Below, in pieces: positions 3,939 through 24,208 of a stretch of DNA of 46,874 bases. The notes under the pieces were generated by a model that saw only the letters and a program-made list of their open reading frames with translations, ran no database searches and had not been told where the DNA came from. The translations under genes were made by a program, and so were the position numbers. Where the stretch lies: the sequence record PQ850629.1, one strand, 5' to 3'. Origin of the DNA: Escherichia phage SusanneMuster_Bas79. Within the stretch, counting starts at the first letter, position 1, and each line of letters opens with the position of its first letter.

Positions 3939-3950
3939 TACCATGCTATA

Positions 3951-3980
3951 ATCCCATCCAACGTGATGGGATTTTTTATT
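3951..3980 (+). terminator. rho-independent terminator
   Basis: stem ATCCCATC / GATGGGAT with 6-nt loop followed by TTTTTATT. Confidence 0.55.
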
Positions 3981-3988
3981 GGTGACAT

Positions 3989-5401
3989 ATGTCAAAAATT
4001 GATGCATTAAACGCCTATATACGCGACCGCGTGGCGAACAATAACCGGGCGCTTCAGCAGCAGCGGCTTTGTGCTGGCGGGAAGAATCTGGACCAGAAAC
4101 GTGAGTTCATGTGGAAGGAACTGGGCTACCCGCAGGAAATAACCGCCGAGATGTTCCGCTATGCATACGAGCGACATCCAGCCGCCGCCGCTGGCATTAA
4201 CCGCATTATTAATAAATGCTGGCAGAAATATCCTGAAGTGGTCGAAGATGGCGAGGATGATAAGAACTCAACGCCGTGGGAGTTGTCCATCAACGATATG
4301 ATGAAGCGTGCCTATCCGTTCATCAAAGAGGCCGACAAGCGCAACGCCATCAACAGATACTCCGCTGTTATCCTGCAAATCCGCGATGGTCGCCAGTGGA
4401 GTGAGCCGGTAGACATCACCAAAACCCGCCGCATTAAAGATAAATCCATTGTTCGCTTTATCCCAGTATGGGAAGAGCAACTCCGCGTCAGCGCATGGAA
4501 TAACGATGAAACAAGTGAAGACTACGGCATGCCTGAGATGTACGAATATCAGGAAAGCGCCGTAGAGGATTTCGATAGCGACGGCAAGCCTGAGCGTTCC
4601 GTGCAGATTCATCCTGATCGCATTATCATTCTGGCAGAGGGTAGCTTCGATGGCAGTATGTTCAGTGGCATCCCGATGCTACGTGCTGGCTACAACAGCC
4701 TTATCGACATGGCTAAGGTTTCCGGTAGTTCAGCAGAAGGCTTCCTGAAGAATGCCAGCCGTCAACTGGCTGTTAACTACACGAAGGACAACGTAACGCC
4801 AGCAAGCCTTGCACAGTCAATGGGTGTATCTCAGGATGAGCTTATTGACATCATGAATGACAATATCGAGATGCTGAATTCTGGCATTGACGCTGCACTA
4901 TTTAGCATGGGCGCCGAGACTCAGGTGTTATCCGTAACGCCAGCTGACCCGAAACCAACATGGGAAGTGGCTGCCAACCAGTTCGCTGCATCAATGGCGC
5001 TTCCGTTCACCGTCATTTTCGGGCAGCAAACCGGACGCCTTGCGAGTGATGAAGACAAGATGCAGGAGGCGATGACTGCCAAGCAGCGCCGAGAAACATG
5101 GGTGGATTATGTTATCTCAATGTTCGTTGAGCGCATGATTCAGTTCGGCATCGTCGATAAAGCACCGGAAAATGGCTACAAGGTTAAGTGGGACGACCTG
5201 CTTGCTCCATCAGAGCTGGATAAGGCGGAGTTGCTGTCTAAGCTCGCCACTGCGAACAAGTCGTTCTTTGATGCTGGTCAATCTGCGTTGCTTACCGTCG
5301 ATGAGGCTCGCGGCATGGTTGGTATGGAGCCGATTGAACTTGATGAAAGTTATCGCGAAGACACGCCACCGGAAGATGAAAATGAAGATACTCCGGTTTA
5401 A
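3989..5401 (+). CDS. portal protein
   Basis: 470 aa; position between packaging genes and Mu-F-like head morphogenesis gene; acidic C-terminus; assignment mainly by synteny and size. Confidence 0.65.
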
Positions 5402-6335
5402 CGCAAGACTTCCGCAGCCGCGCATATCGCAGAGCCTGACCGACCCGTTAGGCGCTGCAACCCGCATGTCGAAGATGGACAAGGTGATAACGCGCAAATA
5501 TAAGCAACTCAGGACTCGTGCGCTTGAGTTGTTTCGCACCATTCCGCATAGTCAGACTAACGCAGAATCAAGCGGTCTGTATTTCTATGATTTCAGTAGT
5601 GCGCGCGCCGCTACTTTCATGGATGAGTTGCAGGCGCTGATTGACGAGATTCTGCTGGAAGGTGACGACTTCAGTCACGGCAGGATGTGGGCCAATGTGT
5701 TCATCGGTGATGCGTATCAGGCAGGAACGCAGAAGGCCAACTCTGAACTATCAAGCCTGTCTCCGGTTTATGCCGAGCAAAGGCCTATTGCCGCGATACT
5801 CTACAGTGAGCCATATCTGAATCGGCTGCGGCTTGCGTATACAGCTGGTTACTCGGACTGGCGAGGATTGAGTGATTACTCACGCCAACAACTGGCATCC
5901 GTCATTATGGAAGGCATTGCCCGTGGTGCCAATCCTCGAGATGTTGAGGCTGATATTGTTAAGCGTGTTGACGTGTCACATAGTTACGCGAAGCAGATAG
6001 CGCAGACTGAAATCACCGGAACGCTGCGGCAGGCTAACAGGAGAGAAGTCATTGAGGCTCGCGAGGAATTAGGTATTGAAACGGTGATGCTGTGGCAATC
6101 GGCATTATTGCCTGGTCGAACGAGATTTACTCACGCGGCACGGCACGGGCGGTTTTACGCGCCAGAGGAGATTGACACGTTCTATAGCGAGAATGGCAAT
6201 AGATATAATTGCCACTGTGCACAAGTACCAACATTGATAATGGATGGCAAGCCAGTCATTCTTGAGTCGTCGCAGGAAAGGCTTGATAAGCAGCGTGAAG
6301 CGTGGCAATCAGCCAATAAAAAGCCCTCTAAGTGA
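5376..6335 (+). CDS. head morphogenesis protein (Mu F / SPP1 gp7 family)
   Basis: C-terminal motif [16 protein letters not shown] resembles the conserved R-x-R-x2-H-x3-G core of the Mu F family; ORF track extends upstream to 5172 but overlaps portal, so ATG 5376 (or 5343/5382) is the likely start. Confidence 0.7.
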
Positions 6336-6470: not shown

Positions 6471-7079
6471 TTAATCATCAAGTTTCACGCCGGGAATTTT
6501 GCCTGCTGCGATGGCTTCATAAATTAGCTTAGCCTCATCCTCGCGCTTGTAATCTTGCGCTACCATTTCTAATACCGCGCAGATAGATTCAAGTACAGCC
6601 TCATGCTTCCTTTCTGCTTCTGTGCGAAATGGGATGAAAACATCCTTATTGGATGGGGTTATTGCGTAGTAAATCTCACCAGATGGTCTGATAACTATTT
6701 TTTCGCCATCAAGACCAATAACCTTGACTTTTCCCCATGACGTTCCGTTGCTGATATACTCACATTCACACCCAACTGGCGGCAGTCCTTCTCCGTTCCA
6801 TGCTGAATTTTTCGATGCTGCGAGTGCTGCTTTGTATTGCCAATAGGTTACTATCGACTCCTTATGGTCGGAAGATAATTGCGTAGCCCATTCTTCTCCA
6901 TACCAGAAATGCACAAGGCTATTTCCTGTGTGATGTTTCCATGAGAACCCATCATAGTGTGGGTCATTTGTGTCCCATGCGCACAGCGAACCGTCATTAT
7001 CTTGAGTAATTGACAGCGCGTTTTGAGGCCACCAACCACGCTTAGGCAATTCTTGAACTAACAGGTCGATAAGTTTCAT
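6471..7079 (-). CDS. hypothetical protein (202 aa, Trp-rich)
   Basis: long ORF on minus strand, first of a leftward cassette between head and lysis genes. Confidence 0.5.
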   Translation of the reverse strand: MKLIDLLVQELPKRGWWPQNALSITQDNDGSLCAWDTNDPHYDGFSWKHHTGNSLVHFWYGEEWATQLSSDHKESIVTYWQYKAALAASKNSAWNGEGLPPVGCECEYISNGTSWGKVKVIGLDGEKIVIRPSGEIYYAITPSNKDVFIPFRTEAERKHEAVLESICAVLEMVAQDYKREDEAKLIYEAIAAGKIPGVKLDD

Positions 7080-7091
7080 TTTTGTTCTCCG

Positions 7092-7307
7092 TTAATAATT
7101 TGGCTTTACGTCTTTCATTGTTAGTGGCTTCCATCCACTTGCGATTGCAATATCAATACAATCCTCAAGCGTTTCAGCTTTTATTGGCTCACCAACTTCA
7201 CTATCATCAAATTTTCTCTGTATTTGATAGCCATCTACGACATAAAGAATCTCTACAGAACCATGTAGTGTGTGCATCGACTCAAGCCATTGCAGGTGGT
7301 AGCTCAT
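7092..7307 (-). CDS. hypothetical protein (71 aa)
   Basis: ORF with 4-nt overlap to upstream gene. Confidence 0.4.
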   Translation of the reverse strand: MSYHLQWLESMHTLHGSVEILYVVDGYQIQRKFDDSEVGEPIKAETLEDCIDIAIASGWKPLTMKDVKPNY

Positions 7308-7585
7308 TTTGTTCCCCCTAATGCCTTATTAACCGCAGCACGCGCATTATCTAGAGCGCGGCGCTTACTTGATGTTGTCCAGACTTTGCCGGAGTGGTCG
7401 TCGTAGATTTCCAGTAGTTGCTGGAGTGCTGATAGCATGGCCTTGTTATTATCGTGGCAATACCCAACAGAAAAGCCATGCCATAATTCATCCTTTTCTC
7501 TATCGGTCATGTCGCCAAACCCAACCGAATCAAACCATTCAATAAATAATTGGTACACTTCGCGTTGCGTCATTATCAACCTCAC
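7304..7585 (-). CDS. hypothetical protein (ATG at 7573 gives 89 aa)
   Basis: ORF on minus strand; track start is an alternative codon. Confidence 0.4.
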   Translation of the reverse strand: MRLIMTQREVYQLFIEWFDSVGFGDMTDREKDELWHGFSVGYCHDNNKAMLSALQQLLEIYDDHSGKVWTTSSKRRALDNARAAVNKALGGTK

Positions 7586-7830: not shown

Positions 7831-8109
7831 ATGAAACTATCGCAACGCGGCATGGAGGTGTTTGGAATTACCGATGCCGTAGATATATCGCCTTACATCA
7901 CCACTGAGACAACACAGAATCAGTTTGATGCGCTGACAAGCCTTGCCACCGACATCGGCATTGACTCGTTCCGCAAATCAACGCTTCTGAAGAAACACAA
8001 TCTCCGCTGCTTCTCATGTGTCGTCGCGCATTTCATCGTGTGGGGTGAGAAGACTGGCGACAAAGCAAAATGCAAGGCTGAAAAAGAGGTTTACTGGTAT
8101 GGCTATTAG
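7831..8109 (+). CDS. degenerate lysozyme-like protein (P22 gp19-type fragment lacking catalytic core), possibly a remnant
   Basis: N-terminus MKLSQRG and segment NQFDALTSLATDIGIDSFRKSTLLKK resemble lysozyme N-terminus and the conserved NQ-[FY]-DAL...STLL-[RK]-K region, but the E-G-x-R-L / TIGYGHT catalytic segment is absent; overlaps next gene by 11 nt. Confidence 0.45.
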   Translation: MKLSQRGMEVFGITDAVDISPYITTETTQNQFDALTSLATDIGIDSFRKSTLLKKHNLRCFSCVVAHFIVWGEKTGDKAKCKAEKEVYWYGY

Positions 8110-8563
8110 CAAAAACATGAAGGCGTTTCTGGATATGCTGGCGTACAGCGAGGGCACTGATAACGGGCGGCAGAAAACCAATAATCATGGTTATGATGTG
8201 ATTGTTGGCGGCTCACTGTTTACCGACTATTCCGATCACCCGCGCAAGCTGATTAGCCTGCCTAAGCTGGGCATCAAATCCACTGCCGCCGGGCGCTATC
8301 AGGTGCTGGCTAAATTTTATGATGCGTACAAAAAGCAACTGCGCCTGCCTGACTTCTCCCCCGCGTCACAGGACGCTATCGCAATGCAACTAATCCGTGA
8401 ATGCAAAGCCACCGCCGATATTGAGACTGGTCGCATTGCTGATGCTATCCATAAATGCCGCTCCCGCTGGGCTTCATTACCGGGCGCTGGCTATGGTCAG
8501 CATGAGCAGAAGCTGGATAAGTTGATTCAGGTATACAAAGAGGCTGGCGGAGCTGTGGCATGA
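8099..8563 (+). CDS. endolysin, lambda R-type lytic transglycosylase
   Basis: MAISKNMKAFLDMLAYSEGTDNGRQKTNNHGYDVIVGG...FTDYSDHPRK...WASLPGAGYGQ closely parallels phage lambda R along its length. Confidence 0.9.
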   Translation: MAISKNMKAFLDMLAYSEGTDNGRQKTNNHGYDVIVGGSLFTDYSDHPRKLISLPKLGIKSTAAGRYQVLAKFYDAYKKQLRLPDFSPASQDAIAMQLIRECKATADIETGRIADAIHKCRSRWASLPGAGYGQHEQKLDKLIQVYKEAGGAVA

Positions 8564-8799
8564 AAAAGCTAAGCAACTGGCTGCTCGGCGCGTGGATTTC
8601 ATTCTGCTCACTATTGCAGCTATGGCCTGATGCAATGATGCACGTGTGGGTAATGATGCCGGACGACCTGAAAGCGGCGCTACCGCCAATCGTGGTCAAA
8701 GGTGTAAGCTACTCCATCATGCTGGTTGGTATTCTCGGAAAAATGCACGGCATGAGGAAGGAGAACCGGAGGCTGCGCAATGATGTCAATTCTCGCTAA
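8560..8799 (+). CDS. putative holin or small membrane protein
   Basis: 79 aa with two hydrophobic segments (WLLGAWISFCSLL, VSYSIMLVGILG) and basic C-terminus; lies between endolysin and spanins. Confidence 0.35.
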   Translation: MKKLSNWLLGAWISFCSLLQLWPDAMMHVWVMMPDDLKAALPPIVVKGVSYSIMLVGILGKMHGMRKENRRLRNDVNSR

Positions 8800-9271
8800 A
8801 TACTGGCGACCACTGGCAATTATTATAATTGTTGTCTCTGGCGCGTTGTGGGCGCGTAGCGAAATCATCAGCTACGGCGACCAACGATACGCAGAAGGCA
8901 AATCCCAAGCAATCGCCGAACAGAAGGCCGCAGACGAACAAGAGGAGCAACGACGCAATGCAGAACTGCAAAAGATTCAGGCTGACGCACAGCAAAGGAT
9001 TGACGCTGCGCGCAATGATGCTGTCAATGCTGCTGCTAAGTCTGGCAGGTTGCAGCAACAGCTCGCAAATATCCGCAAGCAGCTCGTCGGATATTCCACC
9101 GCTGAGTCCATTGGCAATCCAGCCGCAGAAACCGGAGTTTTGCTTGGAGACGTGCTCGGCAAATCTGTCGAAAGAAATCGACAACTGGCAGATTATGCTG
9201 ACAGGGCAAGAGAGGCAGGATTAGCGTGTGAGGCGCAGTATAATTCGCTGCGTAATAAAAAAGCCCCGTGA
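8780..9271 (+). CDS. i-spanin (Rz-like)
   Basis: N-terminal transmembrane segment LAIIIIVVSGALWA followed by a charged coiled-coil-like region; position after endolysin. Confidence 0.7.
   Translation: MMSILAKYWRPLAIIIIVVSGALWARSEIISYGDQRYAEGKSQAIAEQKAADEQEEQRRNAELQKIQADAQQRIDAARNDAVNAAAKSGRLQQQLANIRKQLVGYSTAESIGNPAAETGVLLGDVLGKSVERNRQLADYADRAREAGLACEAQYNSLRNKKAP
9015..9224 (+). CDS. o-spanin (Rz1-like lipoprotein) embedded in +1 frame of the i-spanin gene
   Basis: MMLSMLLLSLAGCSNSS lipobox followed by Pro-rich DIPPLSPLAIQPQKP; entirely inside 8780-9271 in another frame. Confidence 0.7.
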   Translation: MMLSMLLLSLAGCSNSSQISASSSSDIPPLSPLAIQPQKPEFCLETCSANLSKEIDNWQIMLTGQERQD

Positions 9272-9290
9272 TGGGGCTTGTGTTTAATTG
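9255..9290. terminator. bidirectional rho-independent terminator
   Basis: A-tract, stem AAGCCCC / GGGGCTT, T-rich tail; between convergent lysis and leftward cassette. Confidence 0.55.
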
Positions 9291-9410
9291 GTTTGTTAAG
9301 ATTCTTCCCGCTGCTTCCACATCTGTTTCAGCTGGAAATAAGCATACGCTTCATCACCATCTTTCGCATTGCGCTCCATTTGCTCACACCATGCCGATGG
9401 TTTTGGCGGC

Positions 9411-9716
9411 TCACTCTGCTGGCAATGTTGTTGGCTCATTAACAGATTCCTCAACCGCAGATTCAACGATGCGCACCAGTGAGCACTCAAGATTCGGTGC
9501 ATTGTAATTACCAGCCAGAAACAGAACACTGCCGGTGCTGATTAATACCTGCTTTGCGTTCGCCTGTGACAGATTCTGCACGATGAATTGCGCTGTTTCC
9601 GTGCCGATTTTTAGCACTGCGCTGCCGTCGCTGTTCAGTGATACCAGTTGTGCTGAAGTGTCGGTAATATTGGTGTAGCTCGCGTTTCGTTGCGCGATTG
9701 TTATGTCTGTGAACAT
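9411..9716 (-). CDS. hypothetical protein (101 aa)
   Basis: last gene of a four-gene leftward cassette. Confidence 0.4.
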   Translation of the reverse strand: MFTDITIAQRNASYTNITDTSAQLVSLNSDGSAVLKIGTETAQFIVQNLSQANAKQVLISTGSVLFLAGNYNAPNLECSLVRIVESAVEESVNEPTTLPAE

Positions 9717-9717
9717 A

Positions 9718-9939
9718 TTAGCCTCTTACGTTTAATTTGATTTTTCCATCCACGTCGCGTGATGCACACTCAACAGTGATTGTTAACTTGGTGATCTCTT
9801 CGACGTCTGCATCAAGAATCAAGCGGACGCAACCACCAACTATTCTACCATCCTGATCAACAACGCGAATTTTATCATCGACTCTTTCAACGTGGAGCCA
9901 AACCTTTTCTTCATCACAGCCATTATTGAGAATTGACAT
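9718..9939 (-). CDS. hypothetical protein (73 aa)
   Basis: tightly spaced ORF in leftward cassette. Confidence 0.4.
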   Translation of the reverse strand: MSILNNGCDEEKVWLHVERVDDKIRVVDQDGRIVGGCVRLILDADVEEITKLTITVECASRDVDGKIKLNVRG

Positions 9940-10370
9940 TATTTAATCTCCAGTTCTTTTGCGCGAATTGCGCTGTCAATGATGTCTTGCAAATCCTGTT
10001 CGCGCGATTTATGTCCGCGCTCGCCAGCCTGTAATGCCTTCTTGATTAAGTGCTGCAATGCAGGGTTGGTGACATTCCACGCCATGAGCACATCGTATAC
10101 GTCAACAAATATACCCGGCTTAATCTCGTGCAGGTATTTGTTATCAGCCTCAGGAGCGCCAATGCAATCATTGAGGTCTTGTTCGTCGGTAATTGGCTCG
10201 CGGTATGCAATAACAACATCCCCGCGACCCTCAATCACTTCAATGCGATCAGCATAATATTTGCTTAGATAGAAAATCTCACCAGTCCTTTCTGACTTAA
10301 CTACAAGATAAGCCGCGTTATGGCCAGCAAAATCATCCTCATAACCTTTCAGATATTTCCATTTTTTCAT
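9939..10370 (-). CDS. hypothetical protein (143 aa)
   Basis: ORF with C-terminal HLIKKALQAGERGHKSR segment; family not recognised with confidence. Confidence 0.45.
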   Translation of the reverse strand: MKKWKYLKGYEDDFAGHNAAYLVVKSERTGEIFYLSKYYADRIEVIEGRGDVVIAYREPITDEQDLNDCIGAPEADNKYLHEIKPGIFVDVYDVLMAWNVTNPALQHLIKKALQAGERGHKSREQDLQDIIDSAIRAKELEIK

Positions 10371-10561
10371 TTCATCGTCACCCGATTATTTTCATCAACA
10401 TTAAAATTATCACGAATCAAATCGTACATCTCATCCTTCGGCATATCAGCCAGCGCCACATAGCAACGGGCAAAGTAGCGAACATCACGGAGTGTCAGCG
10501 GCTGCCGCTTCTCCACAATGCTGGTGATAATGTCCATCGGCTCGCGTCGTGGTCTTGGCAT
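10367..10561 (-). CDS. hypothetical protein (64 aa)
   Basis: first gene of leftward cassette, start adjacent to divergent promoter. Confidence 0.4.
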   Translation of the reverse strand: MPRPRREPMDIITSIVEKRQPLTLRDVRYFARCYVALADMPKDEMYDLIRDNFNVDENNRVTMK

Positions 10562-10659
10562 ATTTACTACTCCTTTTTCGAAATTTATTATTGACGAATC
10601 TACGTCACTTAGTCAATACTGTTGGTGTAGAATGATTCTACCACAACGAAAGAGGTGAT
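10562..10659. promoter_or_regulatory. divergent promoter/operator region
   Basis: box GAATCTACGTCAC (10596-10608) and near-perfect palindrome GTAGAAT-G-ATTCTAC (10627-10641). Confidence 0.45.
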
Positions 10660-10863
10660 GTGGAAATGCGATACAAAGAAATAGCAGCGAGCTATCAGAA
10701 GGAAGTTCGCGAGGTTATGGAAATCCTTAACGTTCGAGAGGATACCATTAAGTATGTGGAAACTGCCATGTGTTCACTTGCTCTTGAAGCGGAGGTTGCA
10801 GGTCGTGAAAAGGCTGACGAACTTATATCTGCGTTGGTTTATAGTTCAACCAGTAACGGTTGA
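10660..10863 (+). CDS. hypothetical protein (about 66 aa)
   Basis: first ORF of a rightward early-type cluster; GAGG upstream. Confidence 0.4.
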   Translation: MEMRYKEIAASYQKEVREVMEILNVREDTIKYVETAMCSLALEAEVAGREKADELISALVYSSTSNG

Positions 10864-10923
10864 ATATGAAGGTTATCTGTGCGTTGAGCACGTTGTTATC
10901 AAGTTCTACGGGAGAAGTTATAA

Positions 10924-11118
10924 ATGGCGCATGACGAACTGTACGAAGAATCGTTAATCCAGCGACTGAATGAAGTTGAGCGCACACGCGAATGGCTGGA
11001 GTGCGAATTGCGAGAGGTGCGCAATCGACTGCAACGCAAACGCAGTCAACAGAAAGATGTTATCGACTGGTCTGGCAATGCACCTAAATTTAACAACATT
11101 GGAGAATGGTTGAAATGA
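10924..11118 (+). CDS. hypothetical protein (64 aa, charged/coiled)
   Basis: ORF track entry. Confidence 0.4.
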   Translation: MAHDELYEESLIQRLNEVERTREWLECELREVRNRLQRKRSQQKDVIDWSGNAPKFNNIGEWLK

Positions 11119-11336
11119 GAAAGTTCAGTACGTTAGTTGATTTAATTTTTGCTGACATAAGTGAGGATAACGCCAGAAGCGAGAAGTCAAAAAATCAGCG
11201 TCAGGATATTACGTTTCGCACACTGCTTAAGCAATCAATGCGCAATAAGAAGGAGTGGAGATACAGGCGCGACAGAGTTCTGATAAGACTGTGCAAATTG
11301 AATATGAATAAGATACTTAAGGATATGACCAAATGA
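11106..11336 (+). CDS. hypothetical protein (76 aa, basic)
   Basis: ORF with overlapping start/stop. Confidence 0.4.
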   Translation: MVEMRKFSTLVDLIFADISEDNARSEKSKNQRQDITFRTLLKQSMRNKKEWRYRRDRVLIRLCKLNMNKILKDMTK

Positions 11337-11581
11337 CAGCACCACATATGCCAATGATGAATGATAGCGGGTTGCTGTGCTGCCCATTCTGTGGCGGGAA
11401 TGAAGTTTACTTGAATATTGATTTAGTGCTTGTATCTGTCGAATGCGGAGATTGCTGTGCAAGTTCAGGTGAATGGGGTTCACCGGAAACCGCTGTCAGG
11501 CACTGGAACACCCGCAACGGACACCTATACACCGCAGACGACTTCAATCAGGCAGCAGAGGAGCGTGATTATGGACTATAA
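11333..11581 (+). CDS. Lar-family restriction alleviation protein (putative)
   Basis: zinc-ribbon pattern CCPFCGG...ECGDCC...AVRHWNTR matches the CPFCGG...C-x2-C...W-N-R-R signature I associate with Lar of the Rac prophage. Confidence 0.6.
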   Translation: MTAPHMPMMNDSGLLCCPFCGGNEVYLNIDLVLVSVECGDCCASSGEWGSPETAVRHWNTRNGHLYTADDFNQAAEERDYGL

Positions 11582-12059
11582 ATCACAAATCATGCGCGTG
11601 ATTATGAATCACCCCGGTTCAACGCGCGCATATATTGAGAAGCATTGCGGAGGAAAGCATTCAAGCACCACAACGCATCGTTTGCATGAGATGCTTGCGC
11701 TTGGATTCATTCGCCGCGAGAAGTCCGTGATTCGCGGTGGGAAGTGGCAGTATAAATATTTCATCTCTGATGATGCAGCTGGTATTGATGATGCTATTAA
11801 GTGCCATTTGCTTGATAACGCTGGCGCAGAGGTGAAAGAAATCAGCGTAGCCACTGGCATTGATTACCGAATCGTGAAAAGCCGCATCCGCATTATGTTT
11901 CATAACGGTGATGTAACGCGAAGATATGACCACCACAAGAAGCTGTGGCGTTATTCTTGGCATGAGAAGGAAGTTAACGTCAGCAACCTGTTTAATTCAC
12001 TTCTTCGCAATGTAAGAGGTCGTCATGGGGAAAGCCAAACGCAAGAAGCAAGAGTATGA
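11571..12059 (+). CDS. hypothetical protein (162 aa), possibly DNA-binding
   Basis: ATG 11571 overlapping stop of upstream gene; basic, helix-rich sequence. Confidence 0.45.
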   Translation: MDYKSQIMRVIMNHPGSTRAYIEKHCGGKHSSTTTHRLHEMLALGFIRREKSVIRGGKWQYKYFISDDAAGIDDAIKCHLLDNAGAEVKEISVATGIDYRIVKSRIRIMFHNGDVTRRYDHHKKLWRYSWHEKEVNVSNLFNSLLRNVRGRHGESQTQEARV

Positions 12060-12184
12060 GCCATTACCGCCATGCGAAATGTCAGGAATGCCGCAGCAGG
12101 AGGATGTGATTCTCACCGAGGCTGAGTGGCGCAAGGTGGCAAGAGTGCAAATCATGTTCCGCAAACTTGCTGAGGACGTACTAA

Positions 12185-12532
12185 ATGAGATGGGCTATTA
12201 AGCATAAATCTGGCAGAACTCTGTTTATTACATCGGATGAGTTTATTGCCAATAACCGTAGAAAGATGGGCTGGATAGTGGAGGAAGTGAAGATGACGAG
12301 TAGAGAGCAGTTTGAGGAGTGGGCCAAGGAGAACGGAATGAGTCTTGTTTATGGTGACTGTGATTATGTGTATTCGCCAACCGTATGGGCGTGGAAAGCA
12401 TGGCGAGCATCGCGCTCAGCAATTGAGATTGAATTGCCAGCGGTAGAGATTGGTTATGAAATGATGGAATACTACGAGCCTCAACAGGTTATTGAGGCAA
12501 TCAAACAAGCAGGCTTAAAGGTGAAAAAATGA
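12185..12532 (+). CDS. hypothetical protein (115 aa)
   Basis: ORF track entry. Confidence 0.4.
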   Translation: MRWAIKHKSGRTLFITSDEFIANNRRKMGWIVEEVKMTSREQFEEWAKENGMSLVYGDCDYVYSPTVWAWKAWRASRSAIEIELPAVEIGYEMMEYYEPQQVIEAIKQAGLKVKK

Positions 12533-12855
12533 TTATCCCATTAAACGACATTATGAAAGCAGACATCATTCAGCTTGAAGATTATGACATGCAACTGGCG
12601 TTTGAAATAGAAACTGTTGAGCGTCAACTGCAATATGCTGATAAGAAGAATGATCGCATCTGGCATGAGAAAGCGCTTAAAGCACGGGACCACATGAAGC
12701 GCACGCGCGCACTTATTAAAACTCGTCTGGATAAGCTGTATTTTGGCGAGGAAAGATATTTGCATGGCGCAATTCTTGCGCAAATCCGTAAGGAAATGCC
12801 AATTGGCAAGTTTATGTCATACGTTCACCGCGCAAAGCAGGAGGCCGGGTTATGA
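12529..12855 (+). CDS. hypothetical protein (108 aa)
   Basis: ORF with 4-nt overlap. Confidence 0.4.
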   Translation: MIIPLNDIMKADIIQLEDYDMQLAFEIETVERQLQYADKKNDRIWHEKALKARDHMKRTRALIKTRLDKLYFGEERYLHGAILAQIRKEMPIGKFMSYVHRAKQEAGL

Positions 12856-13040
12856 GCGAACCAAAATTTCCAGAGCTGCCTGTTGAGGTTCAGGTTGCAT
12901 TGATCAATGCGGCAAGTGCAATGGCGACAAAGAAGATTGAGGCAATAGGCAGTGATTACAACAGGAGCATAGACTGGTTTCAGAGGGAGTATCAAAAAAT
13001 CTGCGACGCACTCTACAAAGAAAACAGGGGTAGATCATGA
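12852..13040 (+). CDS. hypothetical protein (62 aa)
   Basis: ORF with 4-nt overlap. Confidence 0.4.
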   Translation: MSEPKFPELPVEVQVALINAASAMATKKIEAIGSDYNRSIDWFQREYQKICDALYKENRGRS

Positions 13041-13183
13041 TTCCATTACTGTGGATATTATCAGCATACGCATTCGCAAGGGTATTTGAGGCTGACACTC
13101 TGTACCAGATGATTTGCTATGGCGCTCTGTTCTGCCTATCTGGTGCTGCACTTGCATTTATGGATGATGTGATTTCAGACTAA
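13037..13183 (+). CDS. small hydrophobic protein (48 aa)
   Basis: hand-translated MIPLLWILSAYAFARVFEADTLYQMICYGALFCLSGAALAFMDDVISD; ATGA overlap with upstream stop. Confidence 0.3.
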   Translation: MIPLLWILSAYAFARVFEADTLYQMICYGALFCLSGAALAFMDDVISD

Positions 13184-13337
13184 CTCCGTATATCTTTTGT
13201 TCATCATGGGCTGCTATCATTTAATCAGGAGGTAGCCCATGAATATAATCCCTATCACTTACTTTCTCACGCTGTACGCACTCACCAATTCGCCATTGTT
13301 TGCACTGGCTACCGCCTCATGGTGCTACATCTCCCTG

Positions 13338-13346
13338 TGTTATAAT
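13338..13346 (+). promoter_or_regulatory. extended -10 element upstream of protease/scaffold gene
   Basis: TGTTATAAT about 32 nt upstream of ATG 13378. Confidence 0.3.
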
Positions 13347-13377
13347 TCGACCACAAACTAACCGTGGAGAGTTAACC

Positions 13378-15257
<1,880 letters not shown>

Positions 15258-15259: not shown

Positions 15260-16330
15260 ATGGAAAAGATTATTTTTACCAAAGACCTGGTAGCCAACTC
15301 CGCAGTGGTGGCTGACCAGTGGAAACATCTGACCATCGACCGCAAGGTGTTCTGCAATGCAGAAGCTGAACTGGCGAAAACATACGGTGTTAACGCCACC
15401 GCACTGGTAACGAAAGATTACTGGCGCGACGTGGATAACGTCACCACCCGCGTTTTCCGCAACGAAGCTGGTCAGGACATGATGGCTGACCTGATGGGCA
15501 TCGCGGCAAACATCAACATCGGAAAGACTGTGGCAATCAGCCGCATTGCTTCCGATGCTGGCAAGGTAGTCCGCACTCTGTCTGGTCAGGAGCCGGAAGA
15601 TTTGGATAAAACTCGCTACGATTACACTGGCGATGTGATCCCAATCTTCAAAACTGGCTACAGCCGAGAATGGCGCGAGCTGCTGGGTATGCAGTCTGAA
15701 GGCTTCGACCCACTGCTGGACGATCAGGCCAACGTCACCTTTAACCTGCGTTCCGACATGGCGCAGTATCTGCTGACCGGCGACCAGACTCTGAACGTGA
15801 ACGGCGTTTACACTGGCTATGGTATCACCAACCACCCGAACACTGTTCAGGTTAACCTGAATGCTTCCGGCGGCCTTAATATCGACCTGCAAACTGCAAC
15901 GCCAGACGAAATCGTGACCTTCTTCAATCAGGATTTCCAGGCTATTCTGGATGCGCAGAACGTATTTGAGCAGGTGACTCTGTGGGTTTCTCCGGCAGTG
16001 CGTCGTAGCTTCATGCGTCCGTATTCTGATGCGGCAGGCTTCAAAGGCGGCACTGTTGAGCAGTACATCACGCAGTTTGGCAATGGTCGCATCGGTAAGA
16101 TTGGCACCAACTTCCTGCTGACTGGTAACCATTTCGTTGGCTACGTTCGCAACGACATGTACATCCGTCCGCGTGTTGCTCAGCCAGTTTCCACCTACGC
16201 GGCAGCTCGTGCCAACCCGCACGATAACTTTAACTTCCTCGTGTGGTCTGCTTTTGGTTTGCAGATTCGCAAGGACGCCACTGGCAAGTCCAGAGTGTTC
16301 AACGGCTACGGTACGCAAACTCCGGTGTAA
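15260..16330 (+). CDS. major capsid protein
   Basis: 356 aa, follows scaffold and decoration-like genes, followed by terminator. Confidence 0.7.
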   Translation: MEKIIFTKDLVANSAVVADQWKHLTIDRKVFCNAEAELAKTYGVNATALVTKDYWRDVDNVTTRVFRNEAGQDMMADLMGIAANINIGKTVAISRIASDAGKVVRTLSGQEPEDLDKTRYDYTGDVIPIFKTGYSREWRELLGMQSEGFDPLLDDQANVTFNLRSDMAQYLLTGDQTLNVNGVYTGYGITNHPNTVQVNLNASGGLNIDLQTATPDEIVTFFNQDFQAILDAQNVFEQVTLWVSPAVRRSFMRPYSDAAGFKGGTVEQYITQFGNGRIGKIGTNFLLTGNHFVGYVRNDMYIRPRVAQPVSTYAAARANPHDNFNFLVWSAFGLQIRKDATGKSRVFNGYGTQTPV

Positions 16331-16331: not shown

Positions 16332-16357
16332 AAAAAAAGGGGCGAAAGCCCCTTTAT
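16332..16357. terminator. hairpin terminator
   Basis: A7, stem GGGGC / GCCCC with GAAA loop, then TTTAT; reads as a stronger terminator on the minus strand. Confidence 0.5.
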
Positions 16358-16571: not shown

Positions 16572-16600
16572 ACAAAACCCGCATCATGCGGGTTTTTTAT
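16572..16600. terminator. bidirectional rho-independent terminator
   Basis: AAAACCCGC-ATCAT-GCGGGTTTTTTATT; separates convergent capsid operon and leftward accessory operon. Confidence 0.65.
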
Positions 16601-17142: not shown

Positions 17143-17312
17143 TTCACCTTAATCATATGCTGTTTTGCAACCTTCAGGCACTCCTCAAAAATGCCACCCT
17201 TCTTTGCGCTCTGATTGCGCTTGTAATACTGAACTGCCGCATCAATTGCCATCTGGTCGATTTCAGGCAGTTTGGTACGTAGTTGTTTTTCAATGAATTG
17301 TTCTGGTGTCAT
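17139..17312 (-). CDS. hypothetical small protein (57 aa)
   Basis: hand-translated MTPEQFIEKQLRTKLPEIDQMAID...; overlaps stop of methyltransferase and start of DnaN-like gene. Confidence 0.35.
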   Translation of the reverse strand: MTPEQFIEKQLRTKLPEIDQMAIDAAVQYYKRNQSAKKGGIFEECLKVAKQHMIKVK

Positions 17313-18112
17313 TAAACGGACCTCATGAATGCTTTAATGAATTCTGCTGCGACTTGTGGAACTATGGCATTGCCATAACCGCGCAATCGTCCCACTCTTG
17401 CGGATACCCCATGAGTTGCCTCGCAAAATCCGCCTGGTATGACTCTAGTTTCCTTATCTGCTCCATGGTTGGGTTTCCATGAATCCCATAAACATGAAGC
17501 CACATCTGGCGATAAAGAGTATCGTTCCTGAATTTTCCGTCCTTTCTGTAAAATGTCTTGCTGAGATCCCCGTAATCCTTCCATCCTCGCGCCGTTGGTG
17601 TCGCCCATCCTCGCGCCAAAGATGATTCTTTTCCTTTCCTGTGGAGAGCCGACGCTGCAAGCTGGCAATACTGACGCCCCGCAGGCGTAGCCTTTGTCTT
17701 CCAGGTTAAGGAATACAAAATCGAGCCAGTGCTTCCCAATTGCTGCTGCAACCTGCTCTCCAAACAGCAATTCAGGCTTGCACTCTCTGATGAGCCTGAG
17801 AAATGCTGGGGCAAGGTGTCGATCGTCGTCAAATCCGAGAGACTTACCGGCAACGCTAAACGGCTGGCAAGGTGGTGATCCTGTCCAGAGTCGAGTGCTT
17901 TCTGGTATTCCTGCCAGCTGGAGTGCAAGGGGCCACCCTCCGATTCCGGCAAAGAAGTGACACTGTGTAAATCCTTCCAGGTCTGAAGGGGTGACTTCGG
18001 TGATTGATCGTTCATCGACATATCCGTAAGGAATTAGTTTATTGTTAATTAATTCACGCAGCCATGCCGCTGCGCCCTTGTCCCACTCATTGTAATAGTG
18101 GACCATCATCAC
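17312..18112 (-). CDS. DNA (cytosine-5)-methyltransferase
   Basis: motif I FAGIGGW, motif IV PPCQPFS, motif VI FGEQV, motif X GNAIVPQV; compact 266 aa. Confidence 0.85.
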   Translation of the reverse strand: MMMVHYYNEWDKGAAAWLRELINNKLIPYGYVDERSITEVTPSDLEGFTQCHFFAGIGGWPLALQLAGIPESTRLWTGSPPCQPFSVAGKSLGFDDDRHLAPAFLRLIRECKPELLFGEQVAAAIGKHWLDFVFLNLEDKGYACGASVLPACSVGSPQERKRIIFGARMGDTNGARMEGLRGSQQDILQKGRKIQERYSLSPDVASCLWDSWKPNHGADKETRVIPGGFCEATHGVSARVGRLRGYGNAIVPQVAAEFIKAFMRSV

Positions 18113-18918
18113 ATCTTCTCCAGAATTGCCATCACCTCGTGAATATCAGCAACAGGAATCTGGATAAACTCCTCATTCTCTGCCACTACATGACCAGCAG
18201 GAAGAATAACGTGGTCAGCTGGCTTCAGTAACTCAATCAGTCGGTCTACTGGCTTAATCTTTTTCGACTTAAGCACCTTCGCCGTTACCTTATCCTTGCC
18301 TTGCGCCTTCGCTTCTTCGACTGCCTCGTCGATAACTTTAACCGCATCATCGCCATGTTCGCGAGTTACTGCTACGGCATTTGCATAGCTGATTTGCCCT
18401 GCACTGATTCGCGCTTTTACTTCGGCTGGCACATCACCCAGTGACAGGTGCATCTGCACGTCAGAAACTGAGCGCCCTACCTTCTTGGCGATTTCCTCGT
18501 TGGTCCAGCCAAAACCCTTCAGTCGCGTGTAAGCCTTTGCGCGTTCAAACGGGTCAAGCTGCTTACCCTGACTGGACGACACCATGAAGGCGATTTTATC
18601 TGCTTCGCCTCCTGTGAAATCCTTGCACTCAATACGAACAATTGGTGCGCCACGCTCAATGGCACGCAACGCTCCGAGATAGCGATGCTGACCATCAAGA
18701 ATGCGGATTCCCTTCTCGTCTGGAATAACTGTTAATGCTGGCAATGGCTGACCTGACTCCCAGCACTGCGCGAAATACTCCACATGCTGCTCATCTGCTT
18801 CGCGGATGTTGTATCCTGGTTCCAGATAGATTTGCTCAACTGGCACGAGATATGTCTTGTTTACCGCGATTCCGTTGCGCGTTTCTTTGTCTGAATAGAT
18901 TTTGCTTAGTGTTTTCAT
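18109..18918 (-). CDS. ParB/Srx-domain protein (ParB-like nuclease domain)
   Basis: N-terminal ILDGQHRYLGALRA (ParB box GxxRxxA), Lys/Ala-rich linker, C-terminal domain; 4-nt overlap with methyltransferase gene. Confidence 0.7.
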   Translation of the reverse strand: MKTLSKIYSDKETRNGIAVNKTYLVPVEQIYLEPGYNIREADEQHVEYFAQCWESGQPLPALTVIPDEKGIRILDGQHRYLGALRAIERGAPIVRIECKDFTGGEADKIAFMVSSSQGKQLDPFERAKAYTRLKGFGWTNEEIAKKVGRSVSDVQMHLSLGDVPAEVKARISAGQISYANAVAVTREHGDDAVKVIDEAVEEAKAQGKDKVTAKVLKSKKIKPVDRLIELLKPADHVILPAGHVVAENEEFIQIPVADIHEVMAILEKM

Positions 18919-18921: not shown

Positions 18922-19563
18922 TTACTCCTCATCACCGGAATTAGCAATATCGTAAAACTGACCGTATGTTATCTGCTTAAAGTTATCAGGTATCGTTACC
19001 TGTCCATGACCTTCACCTTTTGTATTTGGCACGGCAAAAATCAGGCAATCATCCTTTTGCGGGTGTTTGCCGCCATGAGTAGACAGCATTGCAAAACCAA
19101 ATCCGCGACCAGATTGCTCTCCGATTCCGGTGCGTGCGATGCCATAATGATTAACAATATAGTCTTTCCATTCTGGCAATAACTTTAATTTCTCGTTTGC
19201 CTCGCGCATCACCGCGTCCAGATTTTTGTTGTATTCCCGCCCGTCTTTTGTGTTTCCTTTTCCGCGAGCCACGATTACACGCTGACCATCCAAGAACTCT
19301 TCGCGCTTTATTGTCACAGGGCACGGAAATTCAAACTGCTTACTCCACACAAAGCTCTCAAGTAAGCCACCACCGACTGCTCCCCAGCTACGTGTCGTGG
19401 TGAAAGCGATAGCGCCAACCTTTTTCATGGCGTCGCCAAGAACTTCATTGCGGCGCTTTTGGATGTCATCATATGCGTCAATAACTTTCTTAACATCAGC
19501 ACCTTCAACCATGTAATAATCATAATGTTTTGCATTGCTGCTCATCTTCATCACCTCTAGCAT
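18922..19563 (-). CDS. hypothetical protein (about 207-213 aa)
   Basis: first gene of leftward operon; Gly-rich with acidic C-terminus; family not recognised. Confidence 0.5.
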   Translation of the reverse strand: MLEVMKMSSNAKHYDYYMVEGADVKKVIDAYDDIQKRRNEVLGDAMKKVGAIAFTTTRSWGAVGGGLLESFVWSKQFEFPCPVTIKREEFLDGQRVIVARGKGNTKDGREYNKNLDAVMREANEKLKLLPEWKDYIVNHYGIARTGIGEQSGRGFGFAMLSTHGGKHPQKDDCLIFAVPNTKGEGHGQVTIPDNFKQITYGQFYDIANSGDEE

Positions 19564-19564
19564 T

Positions 19565-19660
19565 TATTGTTGTTTCTACGTCACTAACTATAAACGCCAC
19601 ATCAATCTACGTCAACAGGAATATGCTAAAATCATGCTAATCAAAAAACAGGAGATTTGA
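19565..19660. promoter_or_regulatory. divergent promoter region with two conserved boxes
   Basis: TTTCTACGTCAC (19573-19584), CAATCTACGTCAAC (19603-19616), extended -10 TGCTAAAAT (19624-19632), GGAG before ATG 19663. Confidence 0.45.
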
Positions 19661-19662
19661 GC

Positions 19663-19782
19663 ATGGGTTCAACAAACGGTCCTTCTCGTTCGCGCGCTAC
19701 TGGAAATACCAAAACTGGCGGAAAAACTGGCGCAGTTAAGCCAAACGGTTCCACCCGTTCACCATCGCGCGGGAAGAAATAA
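19663..19782 (+). CDS. small highly basic Gly/Ser/Thr-rich protein (39 aa)
   Basis: hand-translated MGSTNGPSRSRATGNTKTGGKTGAVKPNGSTRSPSRGKK; good RBS; TAATG overlap with next gene. Confidence 0.35.
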   Translation: MGSTNGPSRSRATGNTKTGGKTGAVKPNGSTRSPSRGKK

Positions 19783-20222: not shown

Positions 20223-20254
20223 GTGCTGGAAACATATCATCAGCGAGACACGCA

Positions 20255-22085: not shown

Positions 22086-22086
22086 A

Positions 22087-22112
22087 TAAAGCCGCACGAA
22101 GCGGCCTTATTG
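22087..22112 (+). terminator. weak hairpin terminator
   Basis: stem GCCGC / GCGGC with ACGAA loop followed by CTTATT. Confidence 0.4.
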
Positions 22113-22119
22113 CTGGTTT

Positions 22120-22830: not shown

Positions 22831-22831
22831 A

Positions 22832-23548: not shown

Positions 23549-23551
23549 TAA

Positions 23552-24188: not shown

Positions 24189-24208
24189 CTGTTAATAACT
24201 TGTTTATA

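What the first reader, a model, noticed from the sequence alone, without database searches (positions are those of the whole stretch)
10660..13183. Rightward early-type gene cluster containing a Lar-like restriction alleviation gene, embedded within the structural region
Nine or more small co-directional genes with overlapping stops and starts lie between the lysis genes and the prohead protease, a position normally occupied only by morphogenesis genes. One (11333-11581) has the CPFCGG zinc-ribbon pattern of Lar-family restriction alleviation proteins; the rest are unrecognised and include a possible DNA-binding protein and a small hydrophobic peptide. Together with the C5-methyltransferase elsewhere this points to a substantial anti-restriction investment.
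Basis: partly seen in the sequence, partly recalled or inferred. Interest (0 to 1): 0.5.

Follow-up and report, generated by a model that had tools for sequence, protein, structure and literature searches.

The report
Known accessory operon in Skatevirus phage
This is a real but already annotated ten-gene accessory operon of a Skatevirus-type E. coli/Salmonella phage; it includes a Lar-family zinc-ribbon gene whose anti-restriction role is unproven and whose central part differs sharply between otherwise near-identical phages.

Summary
Ten co-directional small genes occupy 10660-13183, and eight of the nine junctions overlap. Every product matches a phage protein family. The block splits the head-gene module.

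It is not new. The window is 97% identical here to Escherichia phage ClaudiaMuster (Bas77), whose record annotates the same genes, including a "Lar-like restriction alleviation protein". A 2025 paper lists that protein as a core gene of the proposed Skatevirinae.

g4 (11333-11581) passes Pfam's Lar threshold and has the CxxC...CxxC ligands and the WNxR helix. It misses NCBIfam's cut-off. The only studied family member (Rac Lar/RalR) has a disputed function. Bas77 carries an identical g4 yet is clearly restricted by type I, II and III systems, so "substantial anti-restriction investment" is not shown.

New here:
- The 37-residue body of g4 is hypervariable (26% identity against about 80% at the termini).
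- A genome-wide promoter-region motif, TCTACRTCA (12 copies, 0.4 expected), sits in the operon's promoter, while structural blocks have extended -10 promoters.
- Every deposited genome-reduced seszw mutant counted keeps the Lar-like gene, while the smallest lacks g1, g5, g7 and g9.

The parts
10587..10620 (.). Overlapping divergent sigma-70-type promoters. Rightward: -35 TTGACG (10591-10596), 18-nt spacer, -10 AATACT (10615-10620). Leftward: -35 TTGACT (10616-10611), 18-nt spacer, -10 AATAAT (10592-10587).
   Evidence: Consensus scan. Inverted repeat TATTGACGAA/TTAGTCAATA. Conserved in nine relatives. Function is inferred; no transcript data.
10599..10607 (+). Exact copy of the genome-wide motif TCTACRTCA, inside the spacer of the rightward promoter.
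   Evidence: 12 exact copies in the window against 0.42 expected; 0 of 100 shuffles reach 12. 9 to 11 of the 12 are intergenic. IME207 has 12 copies, all intergenic, at homologous places. Conserved at this position in all ten phages.
10623..10631 (-). Degenerate inverted copy of the motif (TCTACACCA) just downstream of the rightward -10. The copy is exact (TTGACGTAGA) in IME207 and the other phages carrying the Bas77-type version of this intergenic region.
10660..10863 (+). g1, 67 aa (GTG start; alternative ATG at 10666), function unknown. Replaced by unrelated sequence in IME207 and CECAV_048. No homologue in the viable seszw_290L mutant.
   Evidence: phrog_37091, E 7e-46..
10924..11118 (+). 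g2, 64 aa, coiled-coil-like, function unknown, conserved 91-100%.
   Evidence: phrog_15697, E 3e-42. Only weak coiled-coil Pfam hits. 78% of codon differences are synonymous.
11115..11336 (+). g3, 73 aa, DUF7301 protein. Absent from VSt472 and swi2.
   Evidence: PF23975, 83.4 bits against a cut-off of 27..
11333..11581 (+). g4, 82 aa, Lar-family Cys4 zinc ribbon (C17, C20, C38, C41; helix with A54...W58-N59-x-R61) with lineage-specific N- and C-terminal extensions.
11393..11503 (+). Hypervariable body of g4 (residues 21-57).
   Evidence: Mean pairwise identity is 26% here, 83% for residues 1-20 and 73% for 58-82. At least 18 body types occur among 35 representatives. Nucleotide identity is about 45% here and about 90% in the flanks. 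Only 10% of codon differences are synonymous.
11571..12059 (+). g5, 162 aa, probable tandem winged-helix protein. No homologue in the viable seszw_290L mutant.
   Evidence: phrog_1687 'MarR family', E 5e-57. Pfam MarR_2, 18.5 bits, below the cut-off of 27. Helix-helix-helix-strand-strand topology for residues 3-65 in a low-confidence model, pLDDT 51..
12025..12201 (+). g6, 58 aa, function unknown, 92-100% conserved.
   Evidence: phrog_17117, E 9e-40..
12185..12532 (+). g7, 115 aa, function unknown. The N-terminal 34 residues are conserved; the C-terminal part is replaced or variable between relatives (48-66% identity, and two genes in DS8 and IME207). Only the first 15 residues remain in seszw_290L.
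   Evidence: phrog_343, E 8e-32..
12529..12855 (+). g8, 108 aa, helical, function unknown, 94-100% conserved.
   Evidence: phrog_14549, E 2e-68. 86% of codon differences are synonymous.
12852..13040 (+). g9, 62 aa, function unknown. Absent from four of nine relatives.
   Evidence: phrog_16865, E 2e-31..
13037..13183 (+). g10, 48 aa, hydrophobic peptide (mean hydropathy 1.11), 92-100% conserved.
   Evidence: phrog_18423, E 8e-37..
13204..13242 (+). Fully conserved RNA hairpin that pairs part of the Shine-Dalgarno sequence and the AUG of the next gene. It has no U-tract, so it is not a canonical terminator.
   Evidence: Minimum free energy -20.4 kcal/mol, z-score -3.0. Identical in all ten phages.
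13239..13361 (+). g11, 40 aa, second small hydrophobic peptide. A real gene by its substitution pattern.
   Evidence: AGGAGG Shine-Dalgarno sequence. 83% of codon differences are synonymous. Annotated in Bas77. No PHROG match.
13338..13346 (+). Extended -10 promoter consensus TGTTATAAT, 31 nt upstream of the scaffold-like gene. It marks the start of the structural unit.
   Evidence: One of exactly four TGnTATAAT sites, all on the + strand and all just upstream of structural blocks. The same four are present in IME207.
9296..10561 (-). Divergent partner: five small leftward genes of unknown function, driven from the same intergenic region.

Best explanation
The region is a conserved accessory operon of a virulent Skatevirus-type siphophage: ten genes, or eleven with the 40-codon gene that follows.

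Transcription (inferred). It is read rightward from a sigma-70-type promoter at 10591-10620. That promoter overlaps a leftward promoter on the same stretch of DNA. It carries the phage's own 9-bp promoter-region motif TCTACRTCA in its spacer, with an inverted copy just after the -10, which looks like an operator pair for a phage regulator.

Translation (shown from sequence). The genes are packed with overlapping stops and starts, which suggests coupled translation.

Role (partly shown by others). The block does not build virions. In the related phage seszw, a viable genome-reduced mutant lacks the homologues of g1, g5, g7 and g9.

Products. They are small host-interaction or regulatory proteins: a Lar-family Cys4 zinc ribbon (g4), a probable tandem winged-helix DNA binder (g5), a DUF7301 protein (g3), helical proteins (g2, g8) and two membrane peptides (g10, g11).

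g4 mechanism (inferred). It most likely binds a partner through its zinc ribbon. The 37-residue body of the ribbon is exchanged or diversified between phages that are otherwise 90% or more identical, as expected for a specificity determinant in an arms race. By analogy with Rac Lar, the partner would be a type IA restriction-modification methyltransferase, whose de novo methylation is enhanced. This last step is analogy only, and any protection must be modest.
For: - Genes are real and syntenic across Skatevirus, Deseoctovirus, Swiduovirus and Shuimuvirus phages.
- Lar-like protein is listed as a core gene of the proposed Skatevirinae (PMC11769527).
- Lar family membership: PF14354 above threshold; Cys4 ligands and the WNxR helix are invariant in 35 homologues; 33% identity to RalR; confident zinc-ribbon model.
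- Hypervariable g4 body between normal flanks.
- Promoter and motif.
- The four extended -10 sites all sit in front of structural blocks, so this operon has a different promoter class from its structural neighbours.
- Dispensability: seszw_290L lacks the g1, g5, g7 and g9 homologues, and loss of seszw genes 3-10 was seen in mutant populations (PMC9825161).
- The g4 allele is at 99% identity or more in 75 records, against 72 for the capsid gene. By these counts, no deposited seszw derivative has lost it.
- EcoKI sites number 1 against 7.1 +/- 2.4 expected, which points to type IA selection pressure on this genome.
Against: - No transcript or protein data exist for this phage; timing and promoter use are inferred from sequence.
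- Bas77, with an identical g4, is restricted by EcoKI (plating efficiency 0.04-0.08 with one site) and by EcoCFT_I (about 1e-3 with two sites). The BASEL authors call the group 'markedly sensitive to RM systems'.
- Guo et al. 2014 report that RalR does not alleviate restriction and is a DNase toxin.
- g4 is below the NCBIfam Lar cut-off and far below the RalR equivalog model.
- Retention of g4 during serial passage on one modifying host is not what a pure restriction-evasion gene predicts.
- The binder of the TCTACRTCA motif is unknown. g5 is dispensable in seszw, so it cannot be an essential regulator.
- No terminator separates g10 from the head genes, so read-through is possible.
Confidence: 0.6

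Rival explanations
1. g4 works like RalR as described in 2014: a small Mg/Ca-dependent non-specific DNase that damages host DNA during takeover. It would not be a modulator of restriction.
For: RalR is the family's founding member and was reported to be a DNase toxin that does not inhibit restriction (PMC4041452). NCBI now names it an endodeoxyribonuclease toxin. g4 shares N59, the position of RalR N51, which is one of the toxicity residues.
Confidence: 0.1
2. g4 is an anti-defence or host-takeover binder whose target is not a type I restriction enzyme. The target could be another polymorphic defence protein or a host nucleic-acid-binding protein. Alternatively, g4 is a small nucleic-acid-binding regulator. 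On this view the Lar name is uninformative.
For: Hypervariable body with conserved termini. Every deposited seszw derivative keeps the gene despite passage on a single host, where restriction evasion is not needed. Bas77 is restricted by type I systems. The nearest fold is a DNA- and polymerase-associated zinc ribbon. The Lar domain occurs in many contexts, including tandem arrays of up to seven copies.
Confidence: 0.25
3. The block is not an early or host-takeover unit. It is a middle or late regulatory and assembly-accessory unit co-transcribed with the head genes, with g5 as a late-gene regulator and g10 and g11 as lysis- or assembly-timing peptides.
For: No intrinsic terminator lies between g10 and the scaffold-like gene; the only structure there is a hairpin without a U-tract. 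The same promoter architecture with the motif precedes the 19782 operon that leads into the tail genes. The position inside the head module is conserved throughout the family.
Against: Homologues of g1, g5, g7 and g9 are dispensable for plaque formation in seszw. The head block has its own extended -10 promoter of a class shared with the portal and tail blocks, which the operon lacks. Gene content is variable between relatives, unlike assembly genes.
Confidence: 0.15

Closest known systems
Genes Bas77_0027 to Bas77_0037 of Escherichia phage ClaudiaMuster (Bas77, PQ850598), and the same block in other Skatevirus-like phages (Skate, seszw, VSt472, DS8, swi2, IME207, ASO78B)
   Same: Same genes in the same order between the lysis cassette and the scaffold-like, decoration and capsid genes. 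Identity is 97% at the DNA level over 10000-14000, and g2 to g8 proteins are 100% identical. The Lar-like gene is already annotated there.
   Different: A few substitutions in the intergenic promoter region: the inverted motif copy is degenerate in the window and exact in IME207 and the other phages with the Bas77-type sequence there. Relatives other than Bas77 carry different g4 bodies and g7 C-terminal modules, and some lack g1, g3 or g9 or carry an HNH insertion.
Lar / RalR of the E. coli K-12 Rac prophage (Pfam PF14354, TIGR03655)
   Same: Cys4 CxxC...CxxC zinc ribbon followed by a helix with the A-x3-W-N-x-R motif. Pairwise identity is 33% over 45 residues. Pfam family threshold is passed.
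   Different: 82 aa rather than 64 aa, with conserved 15-residue N-terminal and 20-residue C-terminal extensions. Below the TIGR03655 cut-off and far below the RalR equivalog model. RalR K52 is T here. No neighbouring antisense RNA was detected. It sits in a lytic-phage operon, not beside recET. Its function is untested.
Ral of phage lambda (restriction alleviation by enhancing de novo methylation by type IA enzymes)
   Same: A small, non-essential phage protein. [quoted passage not shown]
   Different: The sequence is not recognisably related to Lar (24% identity between lambda Ral and RalR, per PMC4041452), and I did not compare it with g4. I know of no zinc ribbon in Ral (own knowledge, not tested here). 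The resemblance is functional analogy only, and g4 has not been tested.
KorB/ParB-type global operator regulons of plasmids such as RK2 (recalled from my own knowledge; a lead, not a test)
   Same: About a dozen copies of one short operator-like sequence sit in promoter regions across a small replicon. The phage encodes a protein with ParB and KorB helix-turn-helix domains (18109-18918; PF17762 44 bits, PF08535 27 bits).
   Different: The motif TCTACRTCA is not palindromic on its own and occurs as direct or inverted pairs 17-46 bp apart. The binding protein is unknown, and no link between the motif and the ParB-like protein was tested.

Membership tests
Lar family (Pfam PF14354 Lar_restr_allev) | Score at or above the Pfam gathering threshold | tested here: met
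   34.2 bits against 28.6; residues 14-62 cover profile positions 3-58 of 58.
Lar family (NCBIfam TIGR03655 anti_R_Lar) | Score at or above the NCBIfam curated cut-off | tested here: not met
   35.2 bits against 39.6.
RalR equivalog (NCBIfam NF007260) | Score at or above the equivalog cut-off, meaning the same function as Rac RalR | tested here: not met
   18.3 bits against 113.
Lar family | Four cysteine zinc ligands (CxxC ... CxxC) | tested here: met
   C17-P-F-C20 and C38-G-D-C41. C20, C38 and C41 are invariant and C17 is at least 90% conserved in 35 homologues. They align to C9, C12, C30 and C33 of RalR. Zinc binding itself is not testable here.
Lar family | C-terminal helix with the A-x3-W-N-x-R motif | tested here: met
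   A54, W58, N59 and R61. W58, N59 and R61 are invariant. A helix at 51-58 is predicted with pLDDT above 90.
Lar family | Alleviates restriction and enhances modification by type IA restriction-modification systems | not testable with these tools
   Indirect evidence only. Bas77, with an identical protein, plates at 0.04-0.08 on EcoKI and about 1e-3 on EcoCFT_I. The founding member's activity is disputed.
RalR-type DNase toxin | Lysine equivalent to RalR K52 (K52Q abolishes DNase activity) | tested here: not met
   The aligned position is T60, nearly invariant T in the phage subfamily.
RalR/RalA type I toxin-antitoxin | Adjacent antisense small-RNA antitoxin | tested here: inconclusive
   No Rfam family matched 9200-13500 at E up to 1, or the whole window at gathering score. 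I did not verify that Rfam holds a RalA model.
MarR-type / winged-helix DNA-binding proteins (g5) | Profile match above threshold, or a confident winged-helix fold | tested here: inconclusive
   Pfam MarR_2 scores 18.5 bits against 27. phrog_1687, named MarR, matches at E 5e-57, but that name is an annotation. The AlphaFold2 model has pLDDT 51, with helix-helix-helix-strand-strand topology for residues 3-65 only. Foldseek found nothing below E 0.3.
Conserved accessory block of Skatevirus-like phages | Same gene order between the lysis cassette and the scaffold-like, decoration and capsid genes | tested here: met
   Nine relatives from four genera were compared. The literature describes the same order in Roufvirinae.
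Prohead protease (neighbouring gene 13378-14790) | Match to a protease family | tested here: not met
   No Pfam family at E up to 0.01. phrog_760 has unknown function. A 'head maturation protease' PHROG matches only at E 6e-4, over the coiled-coil tail 351-425. PDB sequence matches are to coiled coils only. Some records and PMC11769527 name it 'prohead core protease'.
C5 cytosine DNA methyltransferase (17312-18112) | Pfam PF00145 above threshold | tested here: met
   78.2 bits against 22. The gene is absent from IME207.

The most novel reading that the evidence does not exclude
The Lar-like zinc ribbon is a cassette-variable specificity module. Its invariant N- and C-terminal segments would dock on a conserved partner or effector surface. 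The 37-residue ribbon body, with at least 18 types among 35 representatives, would be exchanged between phages to match polymorphic host defence proteins, such as families of type I methyltransferases or an unrelated immune sensor. The Skatevirus lineage would then hold a natural library of anti-defence specificities. The gene's retention in every deposited genome-reduced seszw mutant counted would reflect a role needed in each infection cycle.
Probability: 0.25. Interest if true: 0.6.

Novelty: already known. Interest (0 to 1): 0.28.

Why it matters
The finding as written adds little. The operon and its Lar-like gene are annotated in dozens of public genomes, and the literature calls the gene a core gene of the lineage.

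Its value is as a caution. A 'restriction alleviation' label resting on one disputed protein should not be read as an anti-restriction arsenal, especially when a phage with an identical gene is measurably sensitive to restriction.

Three by-products could be useful to people working on the BASEL Skatevirus phages:
- a sharply bounded hypervariable cassette inside an otherwise conserved small gene, which is a candidate arms-race interface;
- a two-class promoter map (TCTACRTCA-bearing promoters against extended -10 promoters) that predicts the transcription programme of an unstudied phage group;
- gene-level dispensability read from the deposited seszw mutant genomes.

Tried and rejected
- Chance ORFs: rejected, given the PHROG matches and the excess of synonymous changes.
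- Solved-structure relatives by sequence for g4, g5, g7 and the 470-aa neighbour: nothing meaningful.
- Structure of g5: all its homologues are at least 85% identical, so the model was poor (pLDDT 51) and Foldseek gave no significant match.
- Defence-system models (PADLOC) on all ten proteins: none.
- RNA families and tRNAs: none.
- The palindrome GTAGAATGATTCTAC (10627-10641) as an operator: rejected, because it is unique in the genome and not conserved in the phages with the Bas77-type sequence there.
- A second Lar-like gene, as reported in phage KFSST1: not present in this window.
- A diversity-generating retroelement as the source of g4 variability: rejected, because the body is unalignable at the DNA level rather than mutated at particular bases, and none of the roughly 50 window proteins run through family profile searches matched a reverse transcriptase.
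- Gene-by-gene essentiality from the seszw paper's Supplementary Table S1: the file is not held, so I used the deposited mutant genomes instead.
- Literature search for the 9-mer motif: only unrelated primer matches.
Full report
**What the window is.** Over 10000-14000 the window is 97% identical to Escherichia phage ClaudiaMuster (Bas77, PQ850598). It is 85-92% identical to many Salmonella, Escherichia and Shigella siphophages of the genera Skatevirus, Deseoctovirus, Swiduovirus and Shuimuvirus; 159 phage records match. The BASEL-completion paper places Bas77-81 in a Skatevirus cluster of O-antigen-dependent small siphoviruses (PMC11990801).

**Genome map.** Profile searches give the following order:
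- HNH endonuclease 1-489
- large terminase 1254-2678
- portal 3989-5401
- head morphogenesis 5172-6335
- leftward small genes 6471-7585
- lysis cassette 7831-9271
- leftward small genes 9296-10561
- the block in question
- a 470-aa scaffold-like protein 13378-14790
- head decoration 14790-15257
- major capsid protein 15260-16330
- leftward genes, including a C5 methyltransferase (17312-18112) and a ParB/KorB-like protein (18109-18918)
- head-tail and tail genes 19782-34938
- leftward replication and recombination genes

The head module is therefore split by about 7 kb of lysis and accessory genes, and the block sits inside that gap.

**The observation.** Ten + strand genes fill 10660-13183. 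Every junction from g2 to g10 overlaps (4, 4, 11, 35, 17, 4, 4 and 4 nt), and each start has a Shine-Dalgarno-like sequence. All ten products hit PHROG families at E 1e-14 to 1e-68. Against nine relatives, 73-89% of codon differences in g2, g5, g6, g8 and g10 are synonymous. Three corrections apply. A five-gene leftward cluster lies between the lysis genes and this block. A conserved 40-codon gene (13239-13361) follows g10; it has an AGGAGG ribosome-binding site and 83% synonymous differences. And the 'prohead protease' identity of the next gene is not supported by Pfam, PHROGs or PDB sequence searches here, although some records use that name.

**Already known.** The Bas77 record annotates the same eleven genes, including 'Lar-like restriction alleviation protein'. 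So do ASO78B, DS8, ZK22 and RefSeq versions of several others. A comparative paper lists the Lar-like protein as a Proteinortho core gene of the proposed 'Skatevirinae'. It shows the same gene order (capsid, decoration, 'prohead core protease', small genes with Lar-like, lysis, head morphogenesis, portal) in the Klebsiella 'Roufvirinae' (PMC11769527). The embedded position is thus the lineage's normal architecture and not an anomaly of this genome.

**What the name is worth.** The family name rests on a 1995 genetic study of Rac Lar, which I know only through citations. Guo et al. 2014 reported that the same protein 'does not inhibit restriction modification' and is a Mg/Ca-dependent DNase toxin controlled by the antisense RNA RalA. 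The K52Q change abolished its DNase activity (PMC4041452). In g4 the aligned residue is T60, nearly invariant T in the phage subfamily, and no Rfam family matches in or near the operon. The BASEL data give a direct, if indirect, test. Bas77 has a g4 product 100% identical to the window's. It plates at 0.04-0.08 on EcoKI with one site, 6e-4 to 1e-3 on EcoCFT_I with two sites, about 3e-5 on EcoRI, about 1e-7 on EcoRV, and 1e-6 to 1e-5 on the type III systems. The authors call the group 'markedly sensitive to RM systems'. The window itself has one EcoKI site where 7.1 +/- 2.4 are expected, so site avoidance may matter more than any active alleviation. A Ral-like partial effect cannot be excluded, but 'substantial anti-restriction investment' is not shown.

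**A hypervariable cassette inside g4.** Across nine relatives every gene of the block is about 90-100% identical in protein to the window, with a few exceptions. g4 is 55-61% identical (only Bas77 is identical) and g7 is 48-66% identical. Three genes (g1, g3, g9) are each missing or replaced in two to four relatives. g3 is 62% identical in IME207, and g9 is 70% identical in swi2. In g4 the divergence is confined to residues 21-57. Mean pairwise identity is 26% there, against 83% for residues 1-20 and 73% for 58-82. At least 18 body types occur among 35 representatives. Nucleotide identity falls to about 45% over 11387-11506 between flanks at about 90%, and only 10% of codon differences there are synonymous. 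The cysteines and a few structural positions stay fixed. One allele (the Skate/seszw type) occurs in Salmonella, Escherichia and Citrobacter phages. The window's body is about as similar to Lar domains of unrelated proteins (52-57% over the domain) as to those of its sister phages. This pattern fits cassette exchange or diversifying selection on a binding surface. I found no description of it in the papers I read or searched. g7 shows a cruder version, with its C-terminal module replaced or split.

**Regulation.** The 98-bp intergenic region holds a rightward promoter (TTGACG, 18 nt, AATACT; 10591-10620) and a leftward one (TTGACT, 18 nt, AATAAT; 10616-10587) that occupy the same DNA. The spacer contains TCTACGTCA. 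The 9-mer TCTACRTCA occurs 12 times in the window against 0.42 expected, and 0 of 100 shuffles reach 12. By my rough gene map, 9 copies are intergenic, and 2 more lie at doubtful TTG starts. In IME207, a different genus, there are again 12 copies, all in annotated intergenic regions at homologous places. The copies usually come in pairs 17-46 bp apart. One copy sits just after a TTGAYG -35 and the other sits near the transcription start. At this operon the second copy is inverted. It is exact in IME207 and the other phages with the Bas77-type sequence there, and degenerate in the window. The same architecture precedes the primase gene and the 19782 operon.

By contrast, the extended -10 consensus TGnTATAAT occurs exactly four times, all on the + strand. 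The sites start 29-45 nt upstream of the start codons of the portal, the scaffold-like gene (site at 13338-13346), the major tail protein and the 24611 gene. The same four are present in IME207. The block therefore carries the promoter class of the accessory, lysis and replication units, not that of its structural neighbours. No canonical terminator ends the block. A fully conserved hairpin (13204-13242, -20.4 kcal/mol, z -3.0, no U-tract) pairs the ribosome-binding site and AUG of the 40-codon gene. The protein that binds the motif is unknown. Candidates are g5 and the ParB/KorB-like protein.

**Other products.**
- g3 is a DUF7301 protein (83 bits).
- g5 looks like two winged-helix units in tandem. 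The evidence is sub-threshold (MarR_2, 18.5 bits) and the model is poor (pLDDT 51), so the call is 'probable'.
- g10 and the 40-codon product are hydrophobic peptides.
- g1, g2, g6, g8 and g9 have no informative match in Pfam, NCBIfam, PADLOC or, where searched, the PDB.

**Experimental context from a relative.** Yuan et al. 2022 reduced the genome of the Skatevirus seszw by iterative CRISPR editing (PMC9825161). Wild-type genes Seszw_3 to Seszw_12 correspond one-to-one to g1-g10. The deposited 36.5-kb viable mutant seszw_290L lacks the homologues of g1, g5, g7 (all but 15 residues) and g9. It keeps those of g2, g3, g4, g6, g8, g10 and the 40-codon gene. The paper also reports loss of a fragment spanning genes 3-10 in mutant populations. 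The seszw g4 allele is present at 99% identity or more in 75 records, against 72 for the capsid gene. By these counts, no deposited derivative has lost it. The block is therefore accessory. The Lar-like gene was never among the deletions fixed in isolates, even though passage on one host makes restriction evasion unnecessary. This is weak evidence, because CRISPR efficiency could explain it, for a role beyond escaping restriction.

**Verdict.** The feature is real and correctly located. Its interpretation as a non-structural unit with a Lar-family gene is right. The anti-restriction emphasis and the 'unusual position' claim are overstated, and the whole arrangement is already annotated in public records and the literature. 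The two additions that deserve follow-up are the hypervariable ribbon cassette and the two-class promoter map. Overall interest is low to moderate.

Noticed in passing
window 2726, 7748(-), 7777, 10599, 19575, 19606, 24544, 28962, 38340, 40709, 44682(-), 44699(-): The 9-mer TCTACRTCA occurs 12 times against 0.42 expected and lies almost only in intergenic promoter regions, usually in pairs 17-46 bp apart. IME207 has 12 copies, all intergenic, at homologous places. It looks like a phage-wide operator or promoter element. The binding protein is unknown, and I found no mention of it in the searched literature.
   Followed up: partly
window 3944-3952, 13338-13346, 22787-22795, 24582-24590 (all + strand): Exactly four perfect extended -10 sites (TGnTATAAT), starting 29-45 nt upstream of the start codons of the portal, scaffold-like, major tail and 24611 genes. 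All four are conserved in IME207. This suggests a separate promoter class for virion genes.
   Followed up: partly
window 13204-13361: A 100% conserved hairpin (-20.4 kcal/mol, no U-tract) pairs the Shine-Dalgarno sequence and AUG of a conserved 40-codon hydrophobic gene that has no PHROG match. The whole 13184-13377 stretch is 98-100% identical across ten phages, more conserved than the flanking coding sequence.
   Followed up: partly
window 38429-38441: There is only one EcoKI site (AACN6GTGC) in 46.9 kb where 7.1 +/- 2.4 are expected. This suggests selection against type IA target sites.
   Followed up: no
window 12287-12532 (C-terminal part of g7): This is a second divergence hot spot. The first 34 residues of g7 are conserved, but the rest is 48-66% identical, of different length, or split into two genes in relatives (DS8, IME207).
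   Followed up: partly
L006 (VSt472) 2018-2506; window intergenic 10562-10659: In VSt472 an HNH endonuclease gene is inserted into the divergent promoter region, together with a second promoter-like copy carrying motif-like sequence. Bas78 and ZK22 also carry HNH genes nearby. The region appears to be an insertion hot spot.
   Followed up: no
window 7831-8109 and 8099-8563: The endolysin is annotated as two overlapping ORFs in Bas77 and ASO78B. The first matches only profile positions 55-114 of the 125-position Pfam Phage_lysozyme model, and the second has no Pfam hit. This may be a split or two-component lysin.
   Followed up: no
proteins P0073, P0076, P0102, P0108, P0115: Lar domains occur as tandem arrays of two to seven copies in longer metagenomic proteins (up to 541 aa). 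This is hard to reconcile with a single small restriction-alleviation function for the family.
   Followed up: no
window 17312-18112; L011 (IME207) 19243-19846: The C5 methyltransferase is absent from IME207 at the corresponding place, so it is an accessory gene in this lineage rather than a core one. In Bas77 it does not prevent strong restriction by EcoRI, EcoRV or the type III systems.
   Followed up: partly
window 9261-9279 and 16336-16355 / 16574-16596: Strong terminator hairpins close the lysis cassette and the leftward cluster (9261-9279, read on both strands). Two more lie after the capsid gene, the one at 16574-16596 also read on both strands. None lies between g10 and the head genes.
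   Followed up: no
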